A DNA stretch of 32,283 nucleotides. Origin: a virus. Positions within the stretch are counted from its first letter, which is position 1. Each line of letters opens with the position of its first letter. The stretch covers positions 1-32,283 of IMG/VR virus record IMGVR_UViG_3300009124_000056, one strand, 5' to 3'. The notes beneath the pieces were generated by a model. That model did no database searches, was not told the DNA's origin, and saw only the letters and a program-made list of their open reading frames with translations. The position numbers and the translations under genes are program-made. Below are positions 1,769 through 32,283 of the stretch, one piece after another.

Positions 1769-2724
1769 TGGTTGGAAAACTTACACCAGATTGGATGCTG
1801 TCGGCATCCCGCATACCAGTGTTGCTGAACGCATCACCGTATCAAACGCAGAATGATCTGTTGGCTGAGATGATCAAGATCGATGAGGGCGGCGAGCCAA
1901 CGCGCATACCGCAGAATGAACTGATGGCGTGGGGCGACAGGCTGGAACCCATCGTGTTGACCGAAGCCGCAGCCCGGCTTGGCCTGACCAACGTCGAGTT
2001 GGATTTCACTGAGGCGGTCAAGCACGATCACTTGCCACTGGCTGCGTCGCTTGACGGCGTCGGCTGTGGCAAGGGCGACATCATCGCGGATCTAAACAAG
2101 GGCATCTACACGCCGTTTGCATCCCGCGTCGACATCTCTGGCCTTGGTTGCCTTGAGGCCAAGACGACACAGGCAATGGCTGAAGACTTGCCGCCCAATC
2201 ATCGCGGCGTGTTTCAATTGCAGGCACAGATGATGTGTACCGGGTACAAGTGGGGCGCTGTCTGTGTACTGTACCGGGGCAGTGAGTTACGCATATTTGT
2301 TTATGAGGCTGACCTTGAATTGCAGATGCGTATCATGCAGGCGGTGCATGACTTTGAGCAGCGCCGCAAAAACAAAGACTGGTATGAGCCAGTCAGCGCC
2401 GAAGATGCGGCAACCGCATACAGCCGGGTGGACGATGGCGCACCGCCCATCGAACTCGCCAGCGAGCAGGCGCGTGACTGGCTGAACCAGCTAGTCGTCG
2501 CCAAGCGCAACAAGGCCGTGGCTGAACAGGACATCGATGAGGCAAGCGCCGCAATTATGCAGATTATGGGCAGCCACAAAGAGGCCGTCGGCACAGTGGG
2601 CAATCAAATGATCAAGGTCACTTGGCCGGAGCGCCGGTTCAAGGCACAGCCAGAGCGCATCGTCCCGGCCAAGCCTGAGACTGTCGCACGTCAGAAAACA
2701 TTAACCATAAAGGAACTAAACTAA
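1768..2724 (+). CDS. YqaJ-type (lambda-exonuclease-like) PD-(D/E)XK exonuclease with a C-terminal extension of about 100 aa
   Basis: SRIPVLLNASPYQT, NELMAWGDRLEP, ASLDG, GCLEAKTT (E-x-K) and QLQAQMMCTGY occur in the order typical of YqaJ proteins. GGAGAA lies upstream of the ATG. Confidence 0.8.
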   Translation: MVGKLTPDWMLSASRIPVLLNASPYQTQNDLLAEMIKIDEGGEPTRIPQNELMAWGDRLEPIVLTEAAARLGLTNVELDFTEAVKHDHLPLAASLDGVGCGKGDIIADLNKGIYTPFASRVDISGLGCLEAKTTQAMAEDLPPNHRGVFQLQAQMMCTGYKWGAVCVLYRGSELRIFVYEADLELQMRIMQAVHDFEQRRKNKDWYEPVSAEDAATAYSRVDDGAPPIELASEQARDWLNQLVVAKRNKAVAEQDIDEASAAIMQIMGSHKEAVGTVGNQMIKVTWPERRFKAQPERIVPAKPETVARQKTLTIKELN

Positions 2725-2936
2725 TGGCTCGCCCTCGCGATTACAGCGCCACTGAGCGCGTCTACGATGCGATAGTGTCATACACTGCCAACAATCCCTA
2801 CCCGCCGTCACAGAGCGAAATAGCGGCGATGGTGGGCAGGAGCCGCACGGCAGTCGTCAAACAGCTTGAGCATCTGGTGGCTGCTGGCCGCATTGAGATA
2901 CCGCTAGGCCGCCATCGCGGCATCAAGGTGCTGTGA
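2724..2936 (+). CDS. LexA N-terminal DNA-binding-domain-only protein (winged HTH, 70 aa); no hinge or peptidase domain
   Basis: YPPSQSEIAAMVGRSRTAVVKQLEHLVAAGRIEIPLGRHRGIKVL aligns by eye with E. coli LexA [46 protein letters not shown]. The ORF stops where the LexA DNA-binding domain ends. Confidence 0.75.
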   Translation: MARPRDYSATERVYDAIVSYTANNPYPPSQSEIAAMVGRSRTAVVKQLEHLVAAGRIEIPLGRHRGIKVL

Positions 2937-3079
2937 TGGGTGTGCCAACGAAAGAGGAAATCAAGCAGGCGTTGCAGATACCCAAGGCGACGCCGCCGCT
3001 TGACAGCCTTGGCCGGACGAACAGGCCAACCACCACAAAAAATATGATGCTAAAGATAAAAGAGAAGGGGCAGCGCTAG
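2936..3079 (+). CDS. Possible 47-aa protein, last ORF of the plus-strand operon
   Basis: The ATG overlaps the preceding TGA (GTGATGG). My translation is MGVPTKEEIKQALQIPKATPPLDSLGRTNRPTTTKNMMLKIKEKGQR. The stop lies inside the terminator hairpin. Confidence 0.35.
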   Translation: MGVPTKEEIKQALQIPKATPPLDSLGRTNRPTTTKNMMLKIKEKGQR

Positions 3080-3093
3080 CTGCCCTTTTTCTT
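3067..3093. terminator. Bidirectional intrinsic terminator at the convergence of the plus-strand and minus-strand units
   Basis: GGGCAGC-gcta-GCTGCCC (3068..3085) is followed by TTTTTCTT on the plus strand and preceded by an A-rich run that gives a U-tract on the minus strand. Both convergent ORFs stop within it. Confidence 0.8.
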
Positions 3094-3444
3094 ATTCTGG
3101 AAACTTTCCAGCGCACCGGCACCAAAGTAAAAGCCCAAGATAATCATCATCGCGTAGTTAATACTGAACTGTTCCATCACCTTGGTCACAGCGTCCGGGT
3201 CACCCGTGCCAATGATGGTCATAGTCAACACGATGATGTAGCTGGCTAAGAACGTGAAGCCAAACATCAGGGCAAGGTAACGCTGCGCCAATTTGAATGG
3301 CGCGTATGCGTTCATCAAATCTATCCGCGCCTTGCTCTTGGCCGCGATCTCTTCCTCTGTTGATGTATGCATGTCGTCAATCAGCTTGATGCCTTGTTTG
3401 ATGACACTGTCAGATCCTAAGATTTTTCCTAATACGCCTAGCAT
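3076..3444 (-). CDS. Holin-like membrane protein
   Basis: It has at least two hydrophobic helices (YLALMFGFTFLASYIIVLTMTII and NYAMMIILGFYFGAGAL) and a charged C-terminus (NKKKGS). It lies immediately downstream of the endolysin. Confidence 0.6.
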   Translation of the reverse strand: MLGVLGKILGSDSVIKQGIKLIDDMHTSTEEEIAAKSKARIDLMNAYAPFKLAQRYLALMFGFTFLASYIIVLTMTIIGTGDPDAVTKVMEQFSINYAMMIILGFYFGAGALESFQNKKKGS

Positions 3445-3816
3445 CTAATAACTCCATACGTTGGGGCGTGGGCCGCCCTTGAATGTATCCAAATGCAGGA
3501 ACCGGCCTGACCCTTTTTGAGCCACGCCAATGCCGGTAAAGCCGTGCTTGAATGCCAGCTTCATCAGGTCATAGCAGTCAGTGCCAGCCACAGCCACGTC
3601 AACAGCAATGCCTCTGGTATGCACACCCGGCGCTGCCTTGCTGGCCTCGACGCTGTGTTGCGGCGAGCGGTAGGCGCTGGTGATTGTCATCGGCTTGCCA
3701 TAATCATCGCGCAATGCCTGCAATTTCTGCATAAAAATTTCAGACATCTTGCAGTCGCCGGTTTCACTGCACCGCATCTCTGCCTCGCTAAAACTTGGGT
3801 AATCTTTCCAGTTCAT
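3445..3816 (-). CDS. Endolysin, peptidase M15 (zinc D-Ala-D-Ala carboxypeptidase-like) family
   Basis: SAYRSPQHS, GVHTRGIAVDV and RFLHLD give the H, D, H metal-ligand pattern of M15 peptidases. It is 123 aa. Confidence 0.85.
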   Translation of the reverse strand: MNWKDYPSFSEAEMRCSETGDCKMSEIFMQKLQALRDDYGKPMTITSAYRSPQHSVEASKAAPGVHTRGIAVDVAVAGTDCYDLMKLAFKHGFTGIGVAQKGSGRFLHLDTFKGGPRPNVWSY

Positions 3817-7093: not shown

Positions 7094-8754
7094 GCTATCA
7101 CCAGATTACCGTTAACAGTCACAGTAACTCCCGTTGCTACAGTTAATGGGCCAGCGCACAAAGCATTGTTGTTAGCCGCGATGGTTACATTAGTGTCAAT
7201 CTGGTCTTCATGCACCCTAAAGATGTCGCCTAGACCATTCGTTGTGTCGCCGGTTGCACCGTTCTCACCTTGAAAATAACCAGCACCACCACCAGCAGCC
7301 GCAGCACCAAACGACAGTGTGCCAGCACCATCTGTCTTTAGCACTTGGTCAGCCGTGCCATCAGATGTTGGATACGACAGGCTGGCTATTGTTGCTGTGT
7401 CAGCGTTAATACCGCCGGTAAACCTAGTCGTGCCACTCTCGATAGCCAGTCTCTCACTGCCTTGATAATACAGTGTAGCGGCTTTGGTTGCGCTAGGGCT
7501 TATCTTAAATGTAAGATTGGCGTTGGCCTTGCTTTTAAACTCAATACTATCTGACTTAAACAGTGTGTTGTTTACACCGCTGTCATGTAAAATAGTTAGG
7601 TCAGTGTCATCACCAAACTTGGCTGCGGCATCATCGCTGTAAACAATGTCGCCGGTCATCGTGCCGCCGGTTGTGGTTAGGAAACCAGTGCCAGATACAT
7701 ACGCCGCAACCCAAGCACTGCCAGTATAAACCTTCATAGAGCCGTCTGTGCTATTAAAATATAGCGAACCAGCAACCAACGGGTCGCCATCGTTATCAAC
7801 AGCAGGCTCTGATGCTGTGCTAAAGACGCCAAGGTAACGGTCATCGAAATTATCATACGCCAACAGCGTTGCGTCACGCGCAGCCTCTGCTGCAGTTTGC
7901 GCTGTCTCTGCGCTAGTCTTGGCTGTCTCTGCGCTGGTCTGCGCTGTCTCAGCAGCGGTCTGGGCAGTCTCTGCTGCTGTCTGTGCGTTGCCTGCGCTAG
8001 TGGCAGATGTTGCCGCCGCAGTGGCGCTGTTGGCCGCGTTAGTCTCAGCCGTTTGCACAATTGATAAATCAACAACCAAATCATAGTAGGCGCTGTTGGC
8101 GTTGGTGCTAAGTGGCACTGTGCCGCTTGATGTGTGTGCGTTGTTCACGCGGTAGATGTTAGAGTTGCTGGTATCAACAACCTGATCGCCAACCTCATAA
8201 GCGACACCAGCCGCCCAGTCGCCTTCCCACTCGCCAACGTCAGATGACGCAACCGGGTTGCCGTCAGCGTTAAAGGCCAAAAACTTGCCAGCCCGGTCAG
8301 CCTTGGCTGGCAGTGTCATGTCAACAACGCCGCCATCCTCAACCAACGCCGGGTCATATACTGGCGCTCGCATGCCGCGCTTGTTCTCTTCGGCAACTTG
8401 CTGGTCAAAGATTGTCAGCGCGTCTAGCTGCTCATTGAGGCTCGACGCCAGCAGATCCCCGGCGGTCACAAAGTCAGTGACGCGCTCAATGTCACGCGCA
8501 CCAACTATGATAACCTGATCAGACGCAGTTGGCGTTGACGGCACGTTGGTGCCGGTCACGATTGTAACTGAGCCGGTGCCATTCGCGTTAATGGTGACGG
8601 TAAAGTCTGTGGTCAGTGTCAGCTTGGTGGCGTTAAAATAAACAGCCACGTCGTTTTCATCTAACACCTCAAACGAAAAGGCATACGGCCCAACACCCGC
8701 CGACCCGGTAAACACGACACGTCGCGTCACTGCATTGATATTATAGTCTGCCAT
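7090..8754 (-). CDS. Tail fibre protein (554 aa)
   Basis: It sits directly after the internal virion protein genes (T7 gp17 position). It has a central A/T/Q/E heptad-repeat shaft and a Gly-rich C-terminal part. Confidence 0.75.
   Translation of the reverse strand: MADYNINAVTRRVVFTGSAGVGPYAFSFEVLDENDVAVYFNATKLTLTTDFTVTINANGTGSVTIVTGTNVPSTPTASDQVIIVGARDIERVTDFVTAGDLLASSLNEQLDALTIFDQQVAEENKRGMRAPVYDPALVEDGGVVDMTLPAKADRAGKFLAFNADGNPVASSDVGEWEGDWAAGVAYEVGDQVVDTSNSNIYRVNNAHTSSGTVPLSTNANSAYYDLVVDLSIVQTAETNAANSATAAATSATSAGNAQTAAETAQTAAETAQTSAETAKTSAETAQTAAEAARDATLLAYDNFDDRYLGVFSTASEPAVDNDGDPLVAGSLYFNSTDGSMKVYTGSAWVAAYVSGTGFLTTTGGTMTGDIVYSDDAAAKFGDDTDLTILHDSGVNNTLFKSDSIEFKSKANANLTFKISPSATKAATLYYQGSERLAIESGTTRFTGGINADTATIASLSYPTSDGTADQVLKTDGAGTLSFGAAAAGGGAGYFQGENGATGDTTNGLGDIFRVHEDQIDTNVTIAANNNALCAGPLTVATGVTVTVNGNLVIA
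7882..7986 (-). repeat. Five tandem 21-bp (heptad) repeats inside the tail fibre gene
   Basis: They encode QTAAETA QTAAETA QTSAETA KTSAETA QTAAEAA (aa 257..291). The repeat units are visible in the DNA (GCTGTCTCTGCGCT-type units). Confidence 0.85.
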
Positions 8755-19953: not shown

Positions 19954-20757
19954 TTAAATGGCTGAGTATTCTTGGGTGCCGTACACCTGTTCAAACATTT
20001 TCTCAACCTTGGCACGATATGCCGGATCATTGTTATACTCAGGCTTGCCAACCATCGCCATCAGTTCTTCTTTTGATGGTGCGCCGTCAATTGGCCCGAC
20101 CTCAACCGGGATGGGCTTGTCGCCGTAATAACTGCGAACTTTTTGCAAGGCGCGTAAACCTTGAGCCGTACCGCCCATTATTTTGAACTCTTCAAAGTCA
20201 GCGTCTGACCATACGCCTTTGCGTACTAGGCTCGACGCCCAGTCAGTCATCGACTTAATAGTTTGGTCAGCATTGTTGCCCAGCTTTTCATATTCTTCTT
20301 TAAATGAGACCTCGCCTGCGTCAGCCTCTTCGCCAGCCATTTGTATAAATGTGCTAGCCAATTGCTCATACGCTGCCTGACTGATGCCATTTTCTTTTGC
20401 CCACTCTGAGTAAGCATTATACAGAGGGTCATCGTTACCAATCCCGGCCTCTTCAAAAAGGCTCGTGTCATAATTATCAGGGGCTTTATGTTTTCCCTGA
20501 CTAAACTTTTTTTGCAGTTCGTTATATGACTTAACAAGGTTTTCAAGATCTGGCCCATCGTCCTCATTCCAAAACTTTTCGGGATACCATTCTGGCCGCG
20601 CCAGTTCTATTTCTTCACCCTCTTTAGCAACAGTCACGTCATCGAGTGACGGCTCATTGTCAGGCAGTTGATGTGAAATAGTTGCCTCTTCAGCTTGCTG
20701 CTGGTTGTCGTCGCCCTCAACTTGGGCTTCGGCCAACAGACCATCTGTATCGTTCAT
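19954..20757 (-). CDS. Scaffolding protein (267 aa, strongly acidic)
   Basis: It lies between the portal region and the capsid gene. It is E/D-rich and helical. Confidence 0.7.
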   Translation of the reverse strand: MNDTDGLLAEAQVEGDDNQQQAEEATISHQLPDNEPSLDDVTVAKEGEEIELARPEWYPEKFWNEDDGPDLENLVKSYNELQKKFSQGKHKAPDNYDTSLFEEAGIGNDDPLYNAYSEWAKENGISQAAYEQLASTFIQMAGEEADAGEVSFKEEYEKLGNNADQTIKSMTDWASSLVRKGVWSDADFEEFKIMGGTAQGLRALQKVRSYYGDKPIPVEVGPIDGAPSKEELMAMVGKPEYNNDPAYRAKVEKMFEQVYGTQEYSAI

Positions 20758-25712: not shown

Positions 25713-25927
25713 CAATCATTCTCCGGGCTAAAAATAATCGTCGTGACGTTCTCATACTCGCTGCTGTTGATCTCCAACATTACGCCCTCGCACGATGTGC
25801 AGACGACTTGCTCACTGCGGTCAGCCACCCGACCGTGGGTGTCAGAGCCACACCAGCCGCATATGACCTCAGTTTTAAAAAACCTGACCGACTGAAAATC
25901 CTTAATGTTAATCACTTCCGCTGTCAT
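25712..25927 (-). CDS. Small zinc-ribbon-like protein (71 aa) between terS and terL
   Basis: CGWC..(x21)..CTSC gives four Cys in two CxxC pairs. I prefer the ATG at 25927 to the TTG at 25936. Confidence 0.6.
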   Translation of the reverse strand: MTAEVINIKDFQSVRFFKTEVICGWCGSDTHGRVADRSEQVVCTSCEGVMLEINSSEYENVTTIIFSPEND

Positions 25928-26318
25928 CGCCGTCAATCTCCACTATGCTAGTCGTTGGCCCGGTAATGTTAATGCCGATCATGCTGGGCTTCTGATCCCC
26001 GGCATTCGGCTCCAGCAAGCCGCGATGCTTCGCCAGTAGTCGCAACGCCGACAACTTGTCGTGCATTTCAACCTCAATGCTGTTGCCAAACTGGTTGGGC
26101 GTGACCTTGACCTTCTTGACAGAGCGCTTGGCGCGATCCGACAACTGGTCACTGGGCGTCAGCGTCACACGCCCCATATCGTCCCACTGGATAACGTCAG
26201 TCGCCTCACCGGCACCAATGGCCTCTAACTCTTGCACAACAGCCTCGCGCCTAGCCTCATCGCTTGAGGCCAGTGCGGCGCGTTGCTGTCTAATCGTTGG
26301 CGTTTTGTTTCCTGACAT
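25908..26318 (-). CDS. terS: Terminase small subunit
   Basis: VEMHDKLSALRLLAKHRGLLEP matches the C-terminal signature I recall for Terminase_2-type small subunits. The ATG at 26318 has GGAG 7 nt upstream. Confidence 0.7.
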   Translation of the reverse strand: MSGNKTPTIRQQRAALASSDEARREAVVQELEAIGAGEATDVIQWDDMGRVTLTPSDQLSDRAKRSVKKVKVTPNQFGNSIEVEMHDKLSALRLLAKHRGLLEPNAGDQKPSMIGINITGPTTSIVEIDGDDSGSD

Positions 26319-26571
26319 GCAGGCACTCCGATCCTGTTGCGGCATAGCCAGCCAGATCCACCCAGCTATCCTGATGATCCGGCGTCGCCGACAGCCGCGC
26401 CAATTTGACCCCGGCCATCATCATCGCCACATGCTCCGGCTGAAACTCAATGCCAACCAGCGCCGTCCATATAACGGCGATGCGCTCGTGATTGTCCCAA
26501 ATACTACCATACTCTTCGCCGCGATCAGCTACGGTTTCTTTTGCGGCATCCAATAATTCATTGCGGTTCAT
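26290..26571 (-). CDS. Conserved phage protein (93 aa)
   Basis: AKETVADRGEEYGS..VAMMMAGVKLARL..DSWVDLAGYAA is a pattern I recall from a widespread phage DUF. The function is unknown. Confidence 0.6.
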   Translation of the reverse strand: MNRNELLDAAKETVADRGEEYGSIWDNHERIAVIWTALVGIEFQPEHVAMMMAGVKLARLSATPDHQDSWVDLAGYAATGSECLHVRKQNAND

Positions 26572-30189: not shown

Positions 30190-30819
30190 TCAGAACAAGT
30201 CTGCGCCTGCTGCTGCGGGTGGCACAGGCGGCGCTGGTTGCGCTGCTGCGGGTTCTGCTGGCGATGACGCGCCTTGCGTCATGCCCTCTGGACGCTCAAT
30301 CCAGCCGCTGATCGACCAGTTAGGCGAGCGGAAAGTCTGCGTACCTTGCGCCTTGGTTTCGATCTGGATGCGGTCACTGCCAGTGATCTCCACGACTGGC
30401 AGTTTGCCGGGGTTGTCGGCCTTGCCAGCCAAGAATGCGTCGTGCAGATCATTCATCTGATTACGCACAATCTTGCTGCTGCTGCTCATCTCACGCAGGC
30501 CGATCTCTTTGTTGTAGAGCCGGATGCGGAACCCCTCTTTGTGATCCGGCGATGGCTGTTGTGGCATTGGCTCGCCAACCTGCACCATACGAAAGTCAGG
30601 GCCAGATGTGGTAAACGCAATGAAGCCAACCTCAATCGCGTCGATGTCCATCACCACCTTGATGGGTGTTTCCATCTCAGTCTCGCTCTTTTCCCAAGTG
30701 CCATCAGGCGCTTGATGCCGATCCTGCCGGACGAATGAACCGTCCTTGGCTGAGTATTTAACAATCGGCAAGAAATCCCCGCCACCCGAACCTGTAGTCT
30801 CTGTAAAACCTAAAGCCAT
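30190..30819 (-). CDS. Putative ssDNA-binding-like protein (209 aa) with a Pro/Ala-rich linker and a C-terminal ..GADLF tip
   Basis: This is the internal ATG of track ORF 30190..30987, with GGAGAA 5 nt upstream, which avoids overlap with 30845..31258. The tail SSPAEPAAAQPAPPVPPAAAGADLF resembles a disordered SSB tail with an acidic/aromatic tip. The fold assignment is inference. Confidence 0.4.
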   Translation of the reverse strand: MALGFTETTGSGGGDFLPIVKYSAKDGSFVRQDRHQAPDGTWEKSETEMETPIKVVMDIDAIEVGFIAFTTSGPDFRMVQVGEPMPQQPSPDHKEGFRIRLYNKEIGLREMSSSSKIVRNQMNDLHDAFLAGKADNPGKLPVVEITGSDRIQIETKAQGTQTFRSPNWSISGWIERPEGMTQGASSPAEPAAAQPAPPVPPAAAGADLF

Positions 30820-30844
30820 TTCATTTCTCCATTGAACTTTAGAA

Positions 30845-31258
30845 CTACCGCAAAACGGTTGCGGCACCGACTGGGAAATAGGCACACACGTCTGCGTCTT
30901 GGGCATCGCCCCGGTCAGATCTGCCGCCCTTCCCCAATTCATAATCGCCAGAGAAATCAAACCTGACGATATTGTCTGTGTAAACATTTAATAGATAGCT
31001 GGGCAGGCCAGTGTGTTGCGTCAGCAGTCTCGCCTGCAACACTTTTGACAGGCTTACCATCGCCGTTGGGTATTTGTACATCGTGCATGTGCGGTGCTTG
31101 ACCTCAACAAACGCCTTCGGCTGGCCGTCCTTCGACACTAAAAAGTCCAGCCGGTATTGCAGCGGCAGCTTGTAAAAGTCGTAGCCGTGCGCGGCGAATG
31201 CCTCAGCCAGCGCGTGTTCTTTGACCCGGTCAGCGTCTGTCTCATACATCTTACGCAT
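30845..31258 (-). CDS. PD-(D/E)XK nuclease, possibly T7 endonuclease-I-like
   Basis: YRLDFLVSKDGQPKAFVEVKHR compares with T7 endonuclease I YTPDFLLPNGIFVETKG (from memory). It is 137 aa. Confidence 0.5.
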   Translation of the reverse strand: MRKMYETDADRVKEHALAEAFAAHGYDFYKLPLQYRLDFLVSKDGQPKAFVEVKHRTCTMYKYPTAMVSLSKVLQARLLTQHTGLPSYLLNVYTDNIVRFDFSGDYELGKGGRSDRGDAQDADVCAYFPVGAATVLR

Positions 31259-32042
31259 CGTGCGCCTCTTTAATTGCCCACAGTATCCGCGCCGCCACTT
31301 GCGGCACGATGCTATTGCCTAATTGTCTAACTCTGTATACCCGACCGGGTATCCCATAAGCCACTCGACCCACTGCGGGTTCAGGCTCCCAGAACTGTGG
31401 GGCTTGCCATCTGCCTGTGTTGCGACTGCCGTCAGACTTGGGGTGTTGCGGTTGTATTCCGATGGGAACCCCCCCTCTTTGTGAATGTGCGCTGTCGGCG
31501 TTGGAAACCATCCGCTTTTCATTGATGGTGCCATTTCGTTCGCCGTAGCTGTTGGCGTGTGCAACAATCCAGCATCTGTCTCTGCGGTGGTAGGCATCTG
31601 CGGCGACAGCCGGAATAACAAAGCACCTTGTTTGGTATCCTTCGGCTTCCAAGTCAGAAAGCACCTCGTCGAGGCCCATAGAGATGTGTCCAGCAACATT
31701 TTCTCCAATAACCCAAGTCGGCCTGACAGCTTGGATAATTCTAAGCATTTCCGGCCAGAGGTGTCTGTCATCTTTATCGCCTCGTCTGACCCCGGCAAGC
31801 GAGAATGGCTGGCAGGGGTATCCCCCGACAACGATGTCAACCAATCCTCTAAATCTATCTGCGTCATTCGCTAACTCCCTCACGTCATCAATTATCTCTG
31901 TTTCAGGCCAATGCTTTCGCAATACTTTCTGCGCGTGTTTATCATATTCGCAAAACGCTACTGTCTCATAGCCACCCACCAGCTTTTCGCCGGCATAACT
32001 AAAACCGCCAATGCCGCTGAATAAGTCAAGCATTCTAAGCAT
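31251..32042 (-). CDS. DNA (cytosine-5)-methyltransferase
   Basis: Motif I LFSGIGGF, motif IV GGYPCQPFSLAG, motif VI VIGENV, motif VIII QTRCFVIP..RRDRCWIVA and motif X QLGNSIVPQVA. The ATG at 32042 overlaps the upstream stop (GATGCTTAG). Confidence 0.9.
   Translation of the reverse strand: MLRMLDLFSGIGGFSYAGEKLVGGYETVAFCEYDKHAQKVLRKHWPETEIIDDVRELANDADRFRGLVDIVVGGYPCQPFSLAGVRRGDKDDRHLWPEMLRIIQAVRPTWVIGENVAGHISMGLDEVLSDLEAEGYQTRCFVIPAVAADAYHRRDRCWIVAHANSYGERNGTINEKRMVSNADSAHSQRGGVPIGIQPQHPKSDGSRNTGRWQAPQFWEPEPAVGRVAYGIPGRVYRVRQLGNSIVPQVAARILWAIKEAHDA
31319..31867 (-). CDS. Nested +1-frame ORF (182 codons) entirely inside the methyltransferase gene; candidate overprinted gene or frame-switch product
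   Basis: The ATG at 31867 is preceded by GAGGGAG (31881..31875) with a 7-nt spacer. It is the longest same-strand out-of-frame ORF in the window. The translation contains LLHTPTATAN, WFPTPTAH and LNPQWVEWLMGYPVGYT. Confidence 0.35.
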   Translation of the reverse strand: MTQIDLEDWLTSLSGDTPASHSRLPGSDEAIKMTDTSGRKCLELSKLSGRLGLLEKMLLDTSLWASTRCFLTWKPKDTKQGALLFRLSPQMPTTAETDAGLLHTPTATANEMAPSMKSGWFPTPTAHIHKEGGFPSEYNRNTPSLTAVATQADGKPHSSGSLNPQWVEWLMGYPVGYTELDN

Positions 32043-32283
32043 CAGCCAAATGCTCCCGCACAATCATCATCGCCGTCACTTGGTCACACTCGACAGCGTA
32101 GCGCCAGTCGTATTGCTCCGCTATGTCACCGGCTGGCACGTTGCCATCCATATTGACTACTGCCGCCACCGGGAAGCGCCACCGTATTGGCAGGCGGTCA
32201 TATTTATAGACTAGCAGTGGTAGTTTGTTGGTTGCCAGCGCACTGTCGCACGTCTGCACCCACCACTGCGGCTGTATGCCGTA
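32035..32283 (-). CDS. C-terminal part of the Hjc/RecU-like nuclease that starts at 236 across the circular junction
   Basis: The frame is continuous through the 50-bp overlap (position 2 equals 32235). The sequence ..WWVQTCDSALATNKLPLLVYKYDRLPIRWRF.. runs to the stop at 32035. Confidence 0.7.
   Translation of the reverse strand, partial: YGIQPQWWVQTCDSALATNKLPLLVYKYDRLPIRWRFPVAAVVNMDGNVPAGDIAEQYDWRYAVECDQVTAMMIVREHLADA
32234..32283. repeat. Second copy of the 50-bp terminal overlap (identical to 1..50)
   Basis: Direct comparison of the two window ends. Confidence 0.95.

What the first reader, a model, noticed from the sequence alone, without database searches (positions are those of the whole stretch)
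31319..31867. 182-codon +1-frame ORF with its own Shine-Dalgarno nested inside the C5-methyltransferase gene; both frames read like methyltransferase sequence
Seen in the sequence: the main frame (31251..32042) carries FSGIGG, GYPCQPFS, GENV, RRDRCWIVA and QLGNSIVPQVA. The +1 frame of the same strand is open for 549 nt. It starts at an ATG preceded by GAGGGAG at a 7-nt spacing. It is by far the longest same-strand out-of-frame ORF in the window; the next longest are 116 codons in a repeat tract and 106 in the acidic scaffold gene. Its translation does not look like junk. It has two x-TPTA motifs (LLHTPTATAN and WFPTPTAHIHKEGG). It also has a C-terminal LNPQWVEWLMGYPVGYT that follows the pattern of C5-MTase motif IX (compare R-LTPRE-ARLQGFPD-Y), which I cannot find in canonical form in the main frame. 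The very same nucleotides give PAVGRVAYGIPGRVYRVRQLGNS in the main frame. Inference, three options: (a) a genuinely overprinted second protein; (b) a methyltransferase made by frame switching, main frame to +1 near 31560 and back near 31330; (c) a fossil showing that one C-terminal MTase subtype arose from the other by frameshift. My recognition of the +1-frame motifs rests on recollection of TPTA/LNPxFVEWLMG-containing phage methylases, not on a search.
Basis: partly seen in the sequence, partly recalled or inferred. Interest (0 to 1): 0.72.

Follow-up and report, generated by a model that had tools for sequence, protein, structure and literature searches.

The report
Methylase subunit gene nested inside methylase gene
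A phage DNA cytosine methyltransferase gene carries a second, real protein-coding gene in its +1 reading frame. That second protein appears to supply the DNA-recognition part the main protein lacks, as in the two-subunit enzyme M.EcoHK31I, and annotation usually misses it.

Summary
On the minus strand, a 182-codon ORF (31319..31867) with its own GAGGGAG-N7-ATG sits in the +1 frame of the C5-methyltransferase gene (31251..32042).

It is not chance:
- No synonymous shuffle of the main gene (0 of 500) gives so long an open frame.
- The +1 frame is open in all 42 distinct relatives sampled by the main protein alone.
- Main-frame fourfold sites are much less variable inside the overlap (0.87 and 0.40 bits) than outside it (1.43 and 1.28 bits).

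The main protein (alpha) has motifs I-VIII and X, joined by a linker predicted to be disordered. The nested protein (beta) ends in motif IX. A profile of beta C-terminus plus alpha motif X hits M.HhaI motifs IX-X (E = 0.0024). The alpha-frame reading of the same bases hits nothing.

Mycobacteriophage Phasih gp65 carries the same TPxA modules, motif IX and motif X in a single frame.

The best reading is a two-subunit methyltransferase of the M.EcoHK31I type, with beta probably supplying target recognition as well as motif IX. Double frameshifting and a dead fossil are not supported. It is a new member of a known but rarely recognised kind, and it appears very widespread.

The parts
31251..32042 (-). 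alpha gene: the large (catalytic) subunit of a C5 cytosine DNA methyltransferase, 263 aa. It has motifs I-VIII, a linker, and motif X.
   Evidence: PF00145 at 1.5e-38 over res 3-183. phrog_363 at 8e-75 over the full length. The AF2 model is confident for 1-165 and for the 247-262 helix. Foldseek aligns about 167 columns to M.HhaI and M.HaeIII. The JGI protein P0121 is identical.
31319..31867 (-). beta gene: a 182-aa protein in the +1 frame, nested wholly inside alpha. It is the proposed small (target-recognition plus motif IX) subunit.
   Evidence: ORF. phrog_1008 at 1.4e-27. 895 homologs. 39,034 representative clusters at E<=1e-3. Open in 42/42 relatives. Synonymous-site suppression in alpha.
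31875..31881 (-). Shine-Dalgarno GAGGGAG for beta, 7 nt upstream of its ATG (31865-31867). It is built from alpha codons V-R-E.
   Evidence: Sequence. Conserved in the window clade. The Arg codon in this stretch is AGG in 17/20 cases against 14% elsewhere in alpha. SD match of at least 4/5 occurs in 20/29 genes against 21% at random positions.
32004..32021 (-). alpha motif I, FSGIGG (AdoMet binding).
   Evidence: Translation. Pfam alignment range.
31800..31823 (-). alpha motif IV, GYPCQPFS (catalytic Cys). The same bases read DTPASHS in beta.
   Evidence: Translations. The fused proteins P0030 and P0074 change frame upstream of this motif.
31695..31703 (-). alpha motif VI, ENV.
   Evidence: Translation. 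Invariant E114, N115 and V116 in alignment A2.
31560..31586 (-). alpha motif VIII, RRDRCWIVA. It overlaps the first TPxA module of beta.
   Evidence: Translation.
31392..31559 (-). alpha linker (res 162-217). It is G/R/S/E/Q-rich, variable in length and sequence, and predicted to be disordered. It occupies the place of the TRD.
   Evidence: pLDDT about 26-30 over residues 171-244. In the variable region of 13 relatives, 67% of residues are G/R/S/E/D/Q/N/K/H. The alignment score per residue is 0.89 in the alpha frame and 1.29 in the beta frame.
31547..31567 (-). beta module 1, LLHTPTA (res 101-107).
   Evidence: Translation. The module recurs 1-6 times in homologs.
31490..31510 (-). beta module 2, WFPTPTA (res 120-126). 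P122, T123 and P124 are nearly invariant in the family.
   Evidence: Alignment A1. The same module lies in the main frame in the single-chain Phasih gp65.
31334..31384 (-). beta motif IX, LNPQWVEWLMGYPVGYT (res 162-178). The same bases read PAVGRVAYGIPGRVYR in alpha.
   Evidence: The chimera profile A3 aligns it to M.HhaI KLHPRECARVMGYPDSY at E = 0.0024. The control A4 gives no hit. hhalign to Phasih gp65 motif IX gives probability 95.5%, E = 1.3e-8. Fourfold-site entropy here is 0.40 bits.
31293..31325 (-). alpha motif X, QLGNSIVPQVA. The beta stop codon TAG (31319-31321) overlaps its Leu-Gly.
   Evidence: Translation. The beta stop lies 1 nt before the alpha xGN triplet in most of the 42 genes. 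It aligns to M.HhaI KQFGNSVV.

Best explanation
The locus encodes a two-subunit phage C5 cytosine DNA methyltransferase from one stretch of DNA read in two frames.

[quoted passage not shown] These are joined by a disordered linker where a monomeric enzyme has its small domain.
- Beta (31319..31867, +1 frame) is started independently at its own SD-ATG inside alpha.
- The first ~100 residues of beta overlap alpha motifs IV-VIII. By analogy with M.EcoHK31I, they probably help beta dock on alpha.
- The second half of beta carries TPxA modules and motif IX. These are the elements that form the target-recognising small domain in monomeric C5 methyltransferases.
- Alpha and beta are proposed to assemble into the active enzyme, which methylates phage DNA.

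Shown here:
- both frames are conserved and under selection;
- alpha has motifs I-VIII and X;
- beta has motif IX;
- the same modules are in one frame in single-chain relatives.

Inferred, not shown:
- that beta is translated from its own start;
- that the two chains assemble;
- that beta rather than alpha reads the target sequence;
- the target sequence itself.
For: (1) The +1 ORF is real and selected.
- 0 of 500 synonymous shuffles reach its length.
- It is open in 42/42 distinct alpha genes sampled by alpha similarity only, down to 34% alpha identity. The +2 frame is at its null.
- Fourfold-site entropy in alpha is 1.43 bits upstream of beta and 1.28 after the beta stop. It is 0.87 in the overlapped core and 0.40 under beta's C-terminus (Mann-Whitney p = 2e-5).

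(2) Independent initiation is likely.
- The ATG sits at alpha codon 58 with GAGGGAG, conserved in the clade.
- The Arg codon in the SD stretch is AGG in 85% of cases against 14% elsewhere.

(3) Beta is a large family.
- 895 hits and 39,034 representative clusters at E<=1e-3.
- It is nested in the +1 frame in phages of Paenibacillus and Lactobacillus, in a metagenome-assembled bacterial genome (L004) and in an E. coli prophage.
- GenBank annotators of Paenibacillus phage Shelly noted 'g55 internal gene'.

(4) Division of labour.
- Pfam sees only profile positions 2-182 of 324 in alpha.
- AF2 gives a confident Rossmann domain and C-terminal helix, with residues 171-244 at pLDDT about 28.
- Foldseek aligns about 167 of 327 M.HhaI columns.
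- The profile of beta C-terminus plus alpha motif X matches M.HhaI motifs IX-X at E = 0.0024. The alpha-frame control gives nothing.
- Among distant pairs, the region after beta residue 100 scores 92.7 in the beta frame, 48.2 in the alpha frame and 38.2 in the third frame.

(5) Single-chain relatives.
- Phasih gp65 has motifs I, IV, VI and VIII, then LLPTPSAAD and LLSTPQARDYKG, then RLHPAFPEWMMGWPAGWVT, then IIGNGVVPQQ, all in one frame.

(6) Precedent.
- In M.EcoHK31I, beta is encoded entirely in another frame of alpha, carries motif IX, and both chains are needed (PMC2836561, PMC3404938).
Against: - No expression, proteomic or activity data exist for this locus.
- Beta alone gives a poor AF2 model (pLDDT 49.5), so its fold was not compared with the M.HhaI small domain.
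- Pfam PF00145 does not score an alpha-beta-alpha chimera higher than alpha alone (130.5 against 133.5 bits).
- Single-sequence phmmer of the IX-X chimera finds no methyltransferase.
- The M.HhaI match is modest (20 bits).
- The literature places the predicted TRD of M.EcoHK31I in alpha, not in beta.
- The low pLDDT of the alpha linker may partly reflect a gappy alignment of close homologs.
- Some conservation of beta's N-terminal half is forced by alpha. Its score is 145 against 104 in the third-frame control.
Confidence: 0.8

Rival explanations
1. One polypeptide is made by two programmed frameshifts. It reads alpha motifs I-VIII, shifts +1 into the TRD and motif IX, then shifts -1 back into motif X, recreating a canonical monomeric methyltransferase.
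For: Read in that order, the gene gives motifs IX and X with canonical spacing. That chimera, unlike alpha alone, matches M.HhaI 264-318 and Phasih gp65 354-398 contiguously. The beta stop sits exactly at the start of motif X in most relatives.
Against: - The +1 frame is open and constrained for about 100 codons upstream of any possible shift point. It has a conserved ATG and SD there.
- Beta's conserved hairpin and first TPxA module overlap alpha motifs VI-VIII, so a shift would lose one or the other.
- The junction after motif VIII is the most variable part of the gene, and the residues before the beta stop vary (TELDN, TDLNS, TDCDN, TALDN).
- The bases there did not look slippery by eye. 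No slippery-site scan was run.
- In some relatives beta reads through motif X or spans the whole gene.
- M.EcoHK31I makes two polypeptides (PMC2836561).
Confidence: 0.04
2. The +1 ORF is not translated. It is a passive by-product of the amino-acid and codon constraints of a conserved methyltransferase gene, or a dead fossil of an ancestral frame.
For: - Conserved main-frame motifs automatically conserve two of every three bases of the +1 codons.
- The shuffle null for the +1 frame is already long (mean 84 codons).
- The third-frame control also shows substantial similarity.
- There is no Pfam or NCBIfam family for beta.
Against: - The shuffles keep the protein and codon usage and still never reach the observed length. 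The +2 frame behaves as null.
- Alpha wobble positions, free under this model, are strongly constrained only inside the overlap. Several are invariant across 21-28 sequences.
- In the region where alpha is poorly conserved, the beta frame is the better conserved one.
- There is codon choice for an internal SD.
- Beta's motif IX is homologous to in-frame motif IX of monomeric enzymes, and alpha lacks one.
Confidence: 0.05
3. Beta is a real protein but not a methyltransferase subunit. It could, for example, be a regulator of alpha or an independent DNA-binding or anti-defence factor that merely shares DNA with alpha.
For: - Beta's N-terminal 100 residues have no recognisable methyltransferase counterpart.
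- Beta folds poorly alone.
- The whole-beta profile finds no methyltransferase in the PDB.
- Some homologs carry long unrelated extensions, such as P0463 at 869 aa.
Against: - Beta is always found with an alpha that lacks motif IX and a folded variable region.
- It carries exactly the missing pieces.
- Those pieces are in frame in monomeric relatives.
- The characterised precedent needs beta for activity (PMC2836561).
Confidence: 0.08
4. The double reading frame is an assembly or sequencing artefact: a pair of compensating indels in a metagenomic contig.
For: The window is a metagenomic contig. Frame-hybrid proteins that look like indel products exist in metagenomes (P0030, P0074, P0392, P0401).
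Against: Both ORFs are intact here. The same layout is found in 41 independent loci, including finished genomes of isolated phages and an E. coli chromosome.
Confidence: 0.01

Closest known systems
M.EcoHK31I (E. coli HK31; Lee, Kam and Shaw 1995, as described in PMC2836561 and PMC3404938)
   Same: It is a C5 methyltransferase made of two polypeptides. Beta is encoded entirely inside the alpha gene in a different reading frame. [quoted passage not shown] Sizes are similar, from memory: alpha 309 aa and beta 176 aa, against 263 and 182 here. The N-terminal part of beta influences association with alpha.
   Different: It belongs to a type II restriction-modification system, whereas this gene sits in a phage replication module with no recognisable restriction enzyme. 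The literature places the predicted TRD in alpha. Here the alpha segment in that position is predicted disordered, and the conserved modules are in beta.
Paenibacillus larvae phage methyltransferases with an annotated 'internal gene' (e.g. Shelly gp55/gp56, NC_041909), and PHROG families 363 and 1008
   Same: The nested +1 ORF is homologous: tblastn gives 35% identity over 95% of beta. The annotators called it as a gene, and phrog_1008 collects such proteins as 'DNA methyltransferase'.
   Different: No function or subunit role is stated in the records. The comparative papers on these phages that I read do not discuss it. In most other records, including RefSeq E. coli PT62 and the JGI source contig, beta is not annotated.
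Single-chain actinophage C5 methyltransferases, e.g. Mycobacterium phage Phasih gp65
   Same: The catalytic motifs are 40% identical over residues 1-169. It has the same TPxA modules, the same motif IX variant (L-x-P-x-F-x-E-W-M-M-G-x-P-x-G-W-x-T) and the same motif X (G-N-x-V-V-P-Q), in the same order.
   Different: Everything is in one frame in a 409-aa monomer. There is no nested gene.
M.AquI (Agmenellum quadruplicatum), as described in PMC3404938
   Same: It is a naturally split C5 methyltransferase whose two chains assemble.
   Different: The split is linear. [quoted passage not shown] Here motif X stays in alpha and beta is nested, not downstream.
Streptomyces phage Darolandstone gp38 (found here)
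   Same: Alpha has a long R/G/A/E-rich linker. A nested +1 ORF carries six LPTPxA modules.
   Different: Motif IX is in the alpha frame, so only the modules are displaced. It is an intermediate layout.

Membership tests
C5 cytosine DNA methyltransferase (PF00145) | Motifs I (FxGxG), IV (PCQ), VI (ENV), VIII (RxR) and X (GN), with a score above the Pfam gathering threshold | tested here: met
   Alpha scores 133.5 bits against a cutoff of 22. The motifs were read in the translation. TIGR00675 scores 106.6 against 100.65. The fold matches M.HhaI, M.HaeIII and DNMT1.
C5 cytosine DNA methyltransferase (PF00145) | Motif IX and a folded variable (TRD) region in the same chain | tested here: not met
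   Pfam matches only profile positions 2-182 of 324. Alpha 171-244 has pLDDT below 50. The alpha-frame C-terminal profile finds no methyltransferase. The enzyme is therefore complete only if beta is counted.
M.EcoHK31I-type two-subunit methyltransferase | The beta ORF lies wholly inside the alpha gene, on the same strand, in a different frame | tested here: met
   31319..31867 lies within 31251..32042 in the +1 frame. This is conserved in 42/42 relatives.
M.EcoHK31I-type two-subunit methyltransferase | [quoted passage not shown] | tested here: met
   for alpha. for motif IX in beta and its absence from alpha.
M.EcoHK31I-type two-subunit methyltransferase | Both polypeptides are made and both are required for methylation | not testable with these tools
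   Only indirect support is available: the internal SD-ATG and selection on both frames.
M.EcoHK31I-type two-subunit methyltransferase | Sequence homology to M.EcoHK31I alpha and beta themselves | not tested
   The 1995 paper is not held. No close relative of the window gene is in E. coli complete genomes.
M.EcoHK31I-type two-subunit methyltransferase | TRD located in alpha. This is a predicted property in the literature, not a defining one. | tested here: inconclusive
   The alpha linker is disordered and poorly conserved. The TPxA modules lie in beta and lie between motifs VIII and IX in monomeric Phasih gp65. No structure of beta was obtained.
M.AquI-type linearly split methyltransferase | The small subunit carries motifs IX and X and is encoded downstream of the large one | tested here: not met
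   Motif X is in alpha, and beta is nested.
Programmed ribosomal frameshift gene | A conserved slippery site at the frame junction, and no independent start for the second frame | tested here: inconclusive
   The second frame does have its own conserved SD-ATG about 100 codons upstream of any junction, so that half of the criterion is not met. Slippery sites were judged only by eye, on the window bases at the two junctions and on the variable beta C-termini of relatives. No scan was run.

The most novel reading that the evidence does not exclude
In this very large family of phage and prophage C5 methyltransferases, the whole target-recognising small domain (a variable string of 1-6 TPxA modules plus motif IX) is made as a separate, exchangeable protein from the +1 frame of the catalytic subunit's gene. 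The catalytic subunit's conserved-looking 'EPxVGRVAxGxPxRVxRL' tail and its 'variable region' would then be only the shadow of that frame. The layout would have arisen from a monomeric enzyme by moving a gene segment into another frame. The moved segment differs between lineages: none in Phasih, modules only in Darolandstone, modules plus motif IX here, and the whole gene in some prophages. Each frame would thus be ancestral in one half of the gene and overprinted in the other. This would also revise the textbook description of M.EcoHK31I, in which beta supplies only motif IX.
Probability: 0.5. Interest if true: 0.75.

Novelty: new member of a known kind. Interest (0 to 1): 0.6.

Why it matters
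- Long same-strand overlapping genes are rare and contested in bacteria and their viruses. Here is one with strong comparative support, a clear biochemical rationale and a characterised precedent.
- It appears to be present in tens of thousands of sequence clusters, yet it has no Pfam or NCBIfam model. It is missing from the source annotation of this contig and from RefSeq annotation of an E. coli prophage.
- Phage methyltransferases annotated as short 'orphan Dcm-like' enzymes may therefore be incomplete as annotated. Their specificity may reside in an unannotated protein.
- This affects prediction of phage methylation patterns, of escape from restriction, and of methylome data.
- The modular beta subunit could be a natural platform for swapping target specificity. 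The precedent enzyme has already been used to build targeted split methyltransferases.
- The series from monomeric to nested layouts offers a concrete case for studying how a gene segment changes frame without loss of function.

Tried and rejected
- Pfam and NCBIfam on beta gave no family at E<=1.
- A beta family profile against PDB sequences gave only a chance GerE hit.
- AF2 on beta with 66 homologs gave pLDDT 49.5, unusable for fold search.
- An alpha(1-163)+beta(105-178)+alpha(236-263) chimera against Pfam did not beat alpha alone, so PF00145 does not recognise this motif IX variant.
- Single-sequence phmmer of the IX-X chimera and of the alpha control against the PDB gave nothing. Only the 15-sequence profile worked.
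- The third homolog search, with a beta-C-terminus plus alpha-motif-X chimera, returned only short beta-like proteins and no single-chain relative. This was probably a limit of the word index. Single-chain relatives were then found by tblastn with a remembered actinophage motif.
- The original M.EcoHK31I paper is not held. E. coli complete genomes hold only a distant prophage relative.
- A literature search for the motif strings and for overprinting in cytosine methyltransferases found nothing.
- My regex-based region analysis kept only 13 close relatives. I therefore repeated it on 11 distant genes.
- I considered and rejected that the downstream PDDEXK gene is a restriction partner. Resolvase-type nucleases sit next to these methyltransferases in several unrelated phages.
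Full report
**1. The observation**

The gene is on the minus strand.
- The main frame (31251..32042, 263 aa) carries FSGIGG, GYPCQPFS, ENV, RRDRCWIVA and QLGNSIVPQVA.
- Its +1 frame holds a 182-codon ORF (31319..31867).
- That ORF's ATG is preceded by GAGGGAG with a 7-nt spacer.
- It is the longest nested same-strand ORF in the window.
- In 500 shuffles that keep the main protein and its codon usage, the longest +1 open stretch averaged 84 codons and never exceeded 152, against 183 observed. The +2 frame is at its null.

**2. Both frames have real homologs**

- The main protein matches PF00145 at 1.5e-38, but only over profile positions 2-182 of 324. It matches phrog_363 over its full length.
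- The +1 protein has no Pfam or NCBIfam family. It matches phrog_1008 at 1.4e-27.
- By tblastn it matches 77 phage records under annotated methyltransferase genes.
- In each record I opened, the match is in the +1 frame of the annotated gene: Phage C72C1, Lactobacillus phage Lc-Nu and Paenibacillus phage Shelly.
- In Shelly the depositors annotated it as 'g55 internal gene'.
- A search of 5.8 billion proteins found 895 homologs of 163-308 aa, almost all without Pfam domains.
- A profile search of 1.84 billion cluster representatives found 39,034 at E<=1e-3 and 21,145 at E<=1e-10. Some of these may be single-chain methyltransferases that match the shared modules.
- No hit is identical to the window's +1 protein. 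JGI called only the main frame on this contig (P0121).

**3. Is the +1 frame selected, or only carried along by the main frame?**

I sampled relatives by the main protein alone, so the sample is not biased towards an intact +1 frame. This gave 41 further distinct genes at 34-98% identity.

- Openness: in all 42 genes the +1 frame is open from about codon 57 to about 24 codons before the main stop. Individual p-values were 0.018 or lower, and 0 of 500 shuffles reached the observed length in most genes. The +2 frame is never unusual beyond chance.
- Synonymous sites: I measured entropy at fourfold-degenerate sites of conserved main-frame residues.

| Region of the main gene | Entropy (bits) |
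|---|---|
| Upstream of the nested start | 1.43 |
| Downstream of the nested stop | 1.28 |
| Overlapped core | 0.87 |
| Under the +1 protein's C-terminus | 0.40 |

  The difference is significant (Mann-Whitney p = 2e-5). Several sites are invariant in 21-28 sequences. A main-frame third position is a +1-frame second position, so this is what selection on the +1 protein predicts.
- Distant pairs: the region after +1 residue 100 scores 92.7 in the +1 frame, 48.2 in the main frame and 38.2 in the third frame. Before residue 100 the main frame leads (251), with the +1 frame (145) above the third-frame control (104).
- Start signals: the ATG sits at main codon 58 with the GAGGGAG across the window's clade. 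The Arg codon inside the SD stretch is AGG in 17 of 20 cases, against 14% of Arg codons elsewhere.

**4. What each protein is**

I call the main protein alpha and the nested one beta.

Alpha:
- AF2 gives a confident Rossmann domain (1-165) and a confident C-terminal helix (247-262).
- Residues 171-244 have pLDDT of about 28.
- Foldseek aligns only about 167 of 327 columns of M.HhaI.

Beta has three parts:
- a conserved N-terminal ~100 residues that overlap alpha motifs IV-VIII;
- a variable middle with one to six [hydrophobic]-x-T-P-x-A modules;
- an almost invariant end, GSLNPxWVEWLMGxPxGxT.

Each joins the last 32 beta residues through the GxT to the alpha residues encoded from the next base onward.
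- The chimera profile hits M.HhaI 264-318 at E = 0.0024. It aligns klnPafvewLMGfPvgw to KLHPRECARVMGYPDSY (motif IX) and KaLGNaiVPQv to KQFGNSVVINV (motif X).
- The control profile, made from the alpha reading of the same bases, hits nothing at E<=10.

According to PMC3404938, the large domain of a C5 methyltransferase holds motifs I-VIII and X. The small domain holds the variable region and motif IX and makes all the specific DNA contacts. Alpha and beta divide the enzyme almost exactly along that line.

**5. The precedent**

M.EcoHK31I consists of alpha and beta chains that must associate (PMC2836561, PMC3404938).
- Alpha has motifs I-VIII, X and the predicted TRD. Beta has motif IX.
- Deletions at the beta N-terminus weaken association.

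The window's locus has the same layout. I could not obtain the M.EcoHK31I sequence, so homology to it is untested.

**6. Single-chain relatives and an intermediate**

- A motif string I remembered from actinophage methylases matches 584 phage records in one frame, covering both the motif IX variant and motif X.
- Mycobacterium phage Phasih gp65 (409 aa) has, in one frame: motifs I, IV (GYPCQPFS), VI and VIII; then LLPTPSAAD and LLSTPQARDYKG; then RLHPAFPEWMMGWPAGWVT; then IIGNGVVPQQ.
- The beta family profile matches its motif IX with probability 95.5% (E = 1.3e-8).
- The window's alpha-beta-alpha chimera aligns to its motifs IX-X without a break.
- Streptomyces phage Darolandstone gp38 is intermediate. 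Its main frame has motifs I-VIII, a ~170-residue R/G/A/E-rich linker, and then motifs IX and X. A nested +1 ORF of 289 aa carries six LPTPxA modules and no motif IX. hhalign of the beta profile to that ORF gives probability 90.9%.
- In a metagenomic phage (L067) and an E. coli PT62 prophage (L068), the two frames are co-extensive over the whole gene.

The modules therefore belong to the region between motifs VIII and IX of a monomeric enzyme. Different lineages have different stretches of it displaced into the +1 frame.

**7. Mechanism proposed**

- Alpha and beta are translated separately from one mRNA, beta from its internal SD-ATG.
- Beta's C-terminal half supplies motif IX and probably the target-recognition modules.
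- Beta's N-terminal half, overprinted on alpha's catalytic motifs, probably helps docking.
- The heterodimer methylates phage DNA.

Shown: selection on both frames, the motif content of each chain, and homology to monomeric enzymes. Inferred: expression, assembly, beta as the TRD, and the target sequence.

The gene sits in a replication and recombination module, and no restriction enzyme was recognised. The module comprises:
- a PDDEXK_14 nuclease immediately downstream;
- an AAA_25 protein;
- an HTH protein;
- the small terminase subunit further on.

This looks like an orphan, self-protective phage methyltransferase.

**8. Rivals**

- Double programmed frameshifting is attractive because the chimera looks canonical, but three points count against it. 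The +1 frame is constrained and has its own start 100 codons upstream of any shift point. Beta's conserved hairpin and first module overlap motifs VI-VIII. The junctions vary between relatives and did not look slippery by eye, although I ran no formal scan.
- A passive or fossil ORF is excluded by the synonymous-site data and by the shuffles.
- An assembly artefact is excluded by the finished genomes.
- A beta with a role unrelated to methylation cannot be excluded, but it fits the data less well.

**9. Caveats**

- The M.HhaI match is modest (20 bits).
- Pfam does not reward the chimera.
- Beta alone could not be modelled.
- The alpha alignment used for AF2 contains only close homologs.
- The entropy test uses related sequences, although it compares regions of the same genes.

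**10. Verdict**

This is a real overprinted gene. It is a new member of the M.EcoHK31I kind of two-subunit C5 methyltransferase. The kind is far more widespread in phages than the literature suggests, and annotation usually misses it.

The more novel reading has about an even chance of being right and is directly testable. It holds that beta is the whole, modular target-recognition domain, and that the layout arose by moving a segment of a monomeric gene into another frame.

Noticed in passing
L069:98-1792 (alpha) and L069:738-1607 (+1 ORF), Streptomyces phage Darolandstone gp38: This is an intermediate layout. The annotated 565-aa methyltransferase has a ~170-residue R/G/A/E-rich linker but keeps motifs IX and X in frame. 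An unannotated nested +1 ORF of 289 aa carries six LPTPxA modules and no motif IX.
   Followed up: partly
L068:1891-2628 and 1895-2650 (E. coli PT62 prophage); L067:2497-3459 and 2501-3472: The alpha and beta frames are co-extensive over the whole gene (245/251 aa and 320/323 aa). The RefSeq PGAP annotation of the E. coli prophage lists only alpha. In L067 and L004 the gene caller chose beta and dropped the longer alpha.
   Followed up: partly
P0030, P0074, P0337, P0392, P0401 (metagenomic proteins): These are frame-hybrid proteins. Some join alpha motif I in frame to beta. One (P0401) joins the beta N-terminus to the alpha C-terminus. They could be indel errors, pseudogenes or natural variants. 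They are a visible minority among the best beta hits.
   Followed up: no
P0463 (869 aa): A beta-like protein with about eight xTPxA modules and motif IX continues into a ~550-residue C-terminal extension of unknown nature.
   Followed up: no
window 30845..31258 (-): The gene immediately downstream is a PF24579 'Phage putative PDDEXK endonuclease' (7e-30). Its ATG overlaps the alpha stop by 8 nt, which suggests translational coupling. It is probably a recombination nuclease rather than a restriction partner.
   Followed up: partly
window 30190..30987 (-) and 30845..31258 (-): Two same-strand ORFs overlap by 143 nt. The 265-aa ORF has no Pfam or PHROG match, and its listed start may be too far upstream.
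   Followed up: no
window 32035..32259 (-) and 32040..32042: The upstream 74-aa ORF ends in ...GATGCTTAG, which overlaps the alpha ATG at 32042. This is a layout typical of translational coupling. JGI starts alpha three codons later, at 32033.
   Followed up: no
window 7734..8084 (-) and 20247..20567 (-): These are the next-longest nested +1 ORFs in the window, at 116 and 106 codons. They lie inside 554-aa and 267-aa ORFs. I did not examine them.
   Followed up: no
whole window: The window equals an entire 32,283-bp JGI metagenomic contig (the longest contig of P0121). It carries a small terminase subunit gene at 25908..26345 and a replication module, so it may be a complete or near-complete small phage genome.
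   Followed up: no
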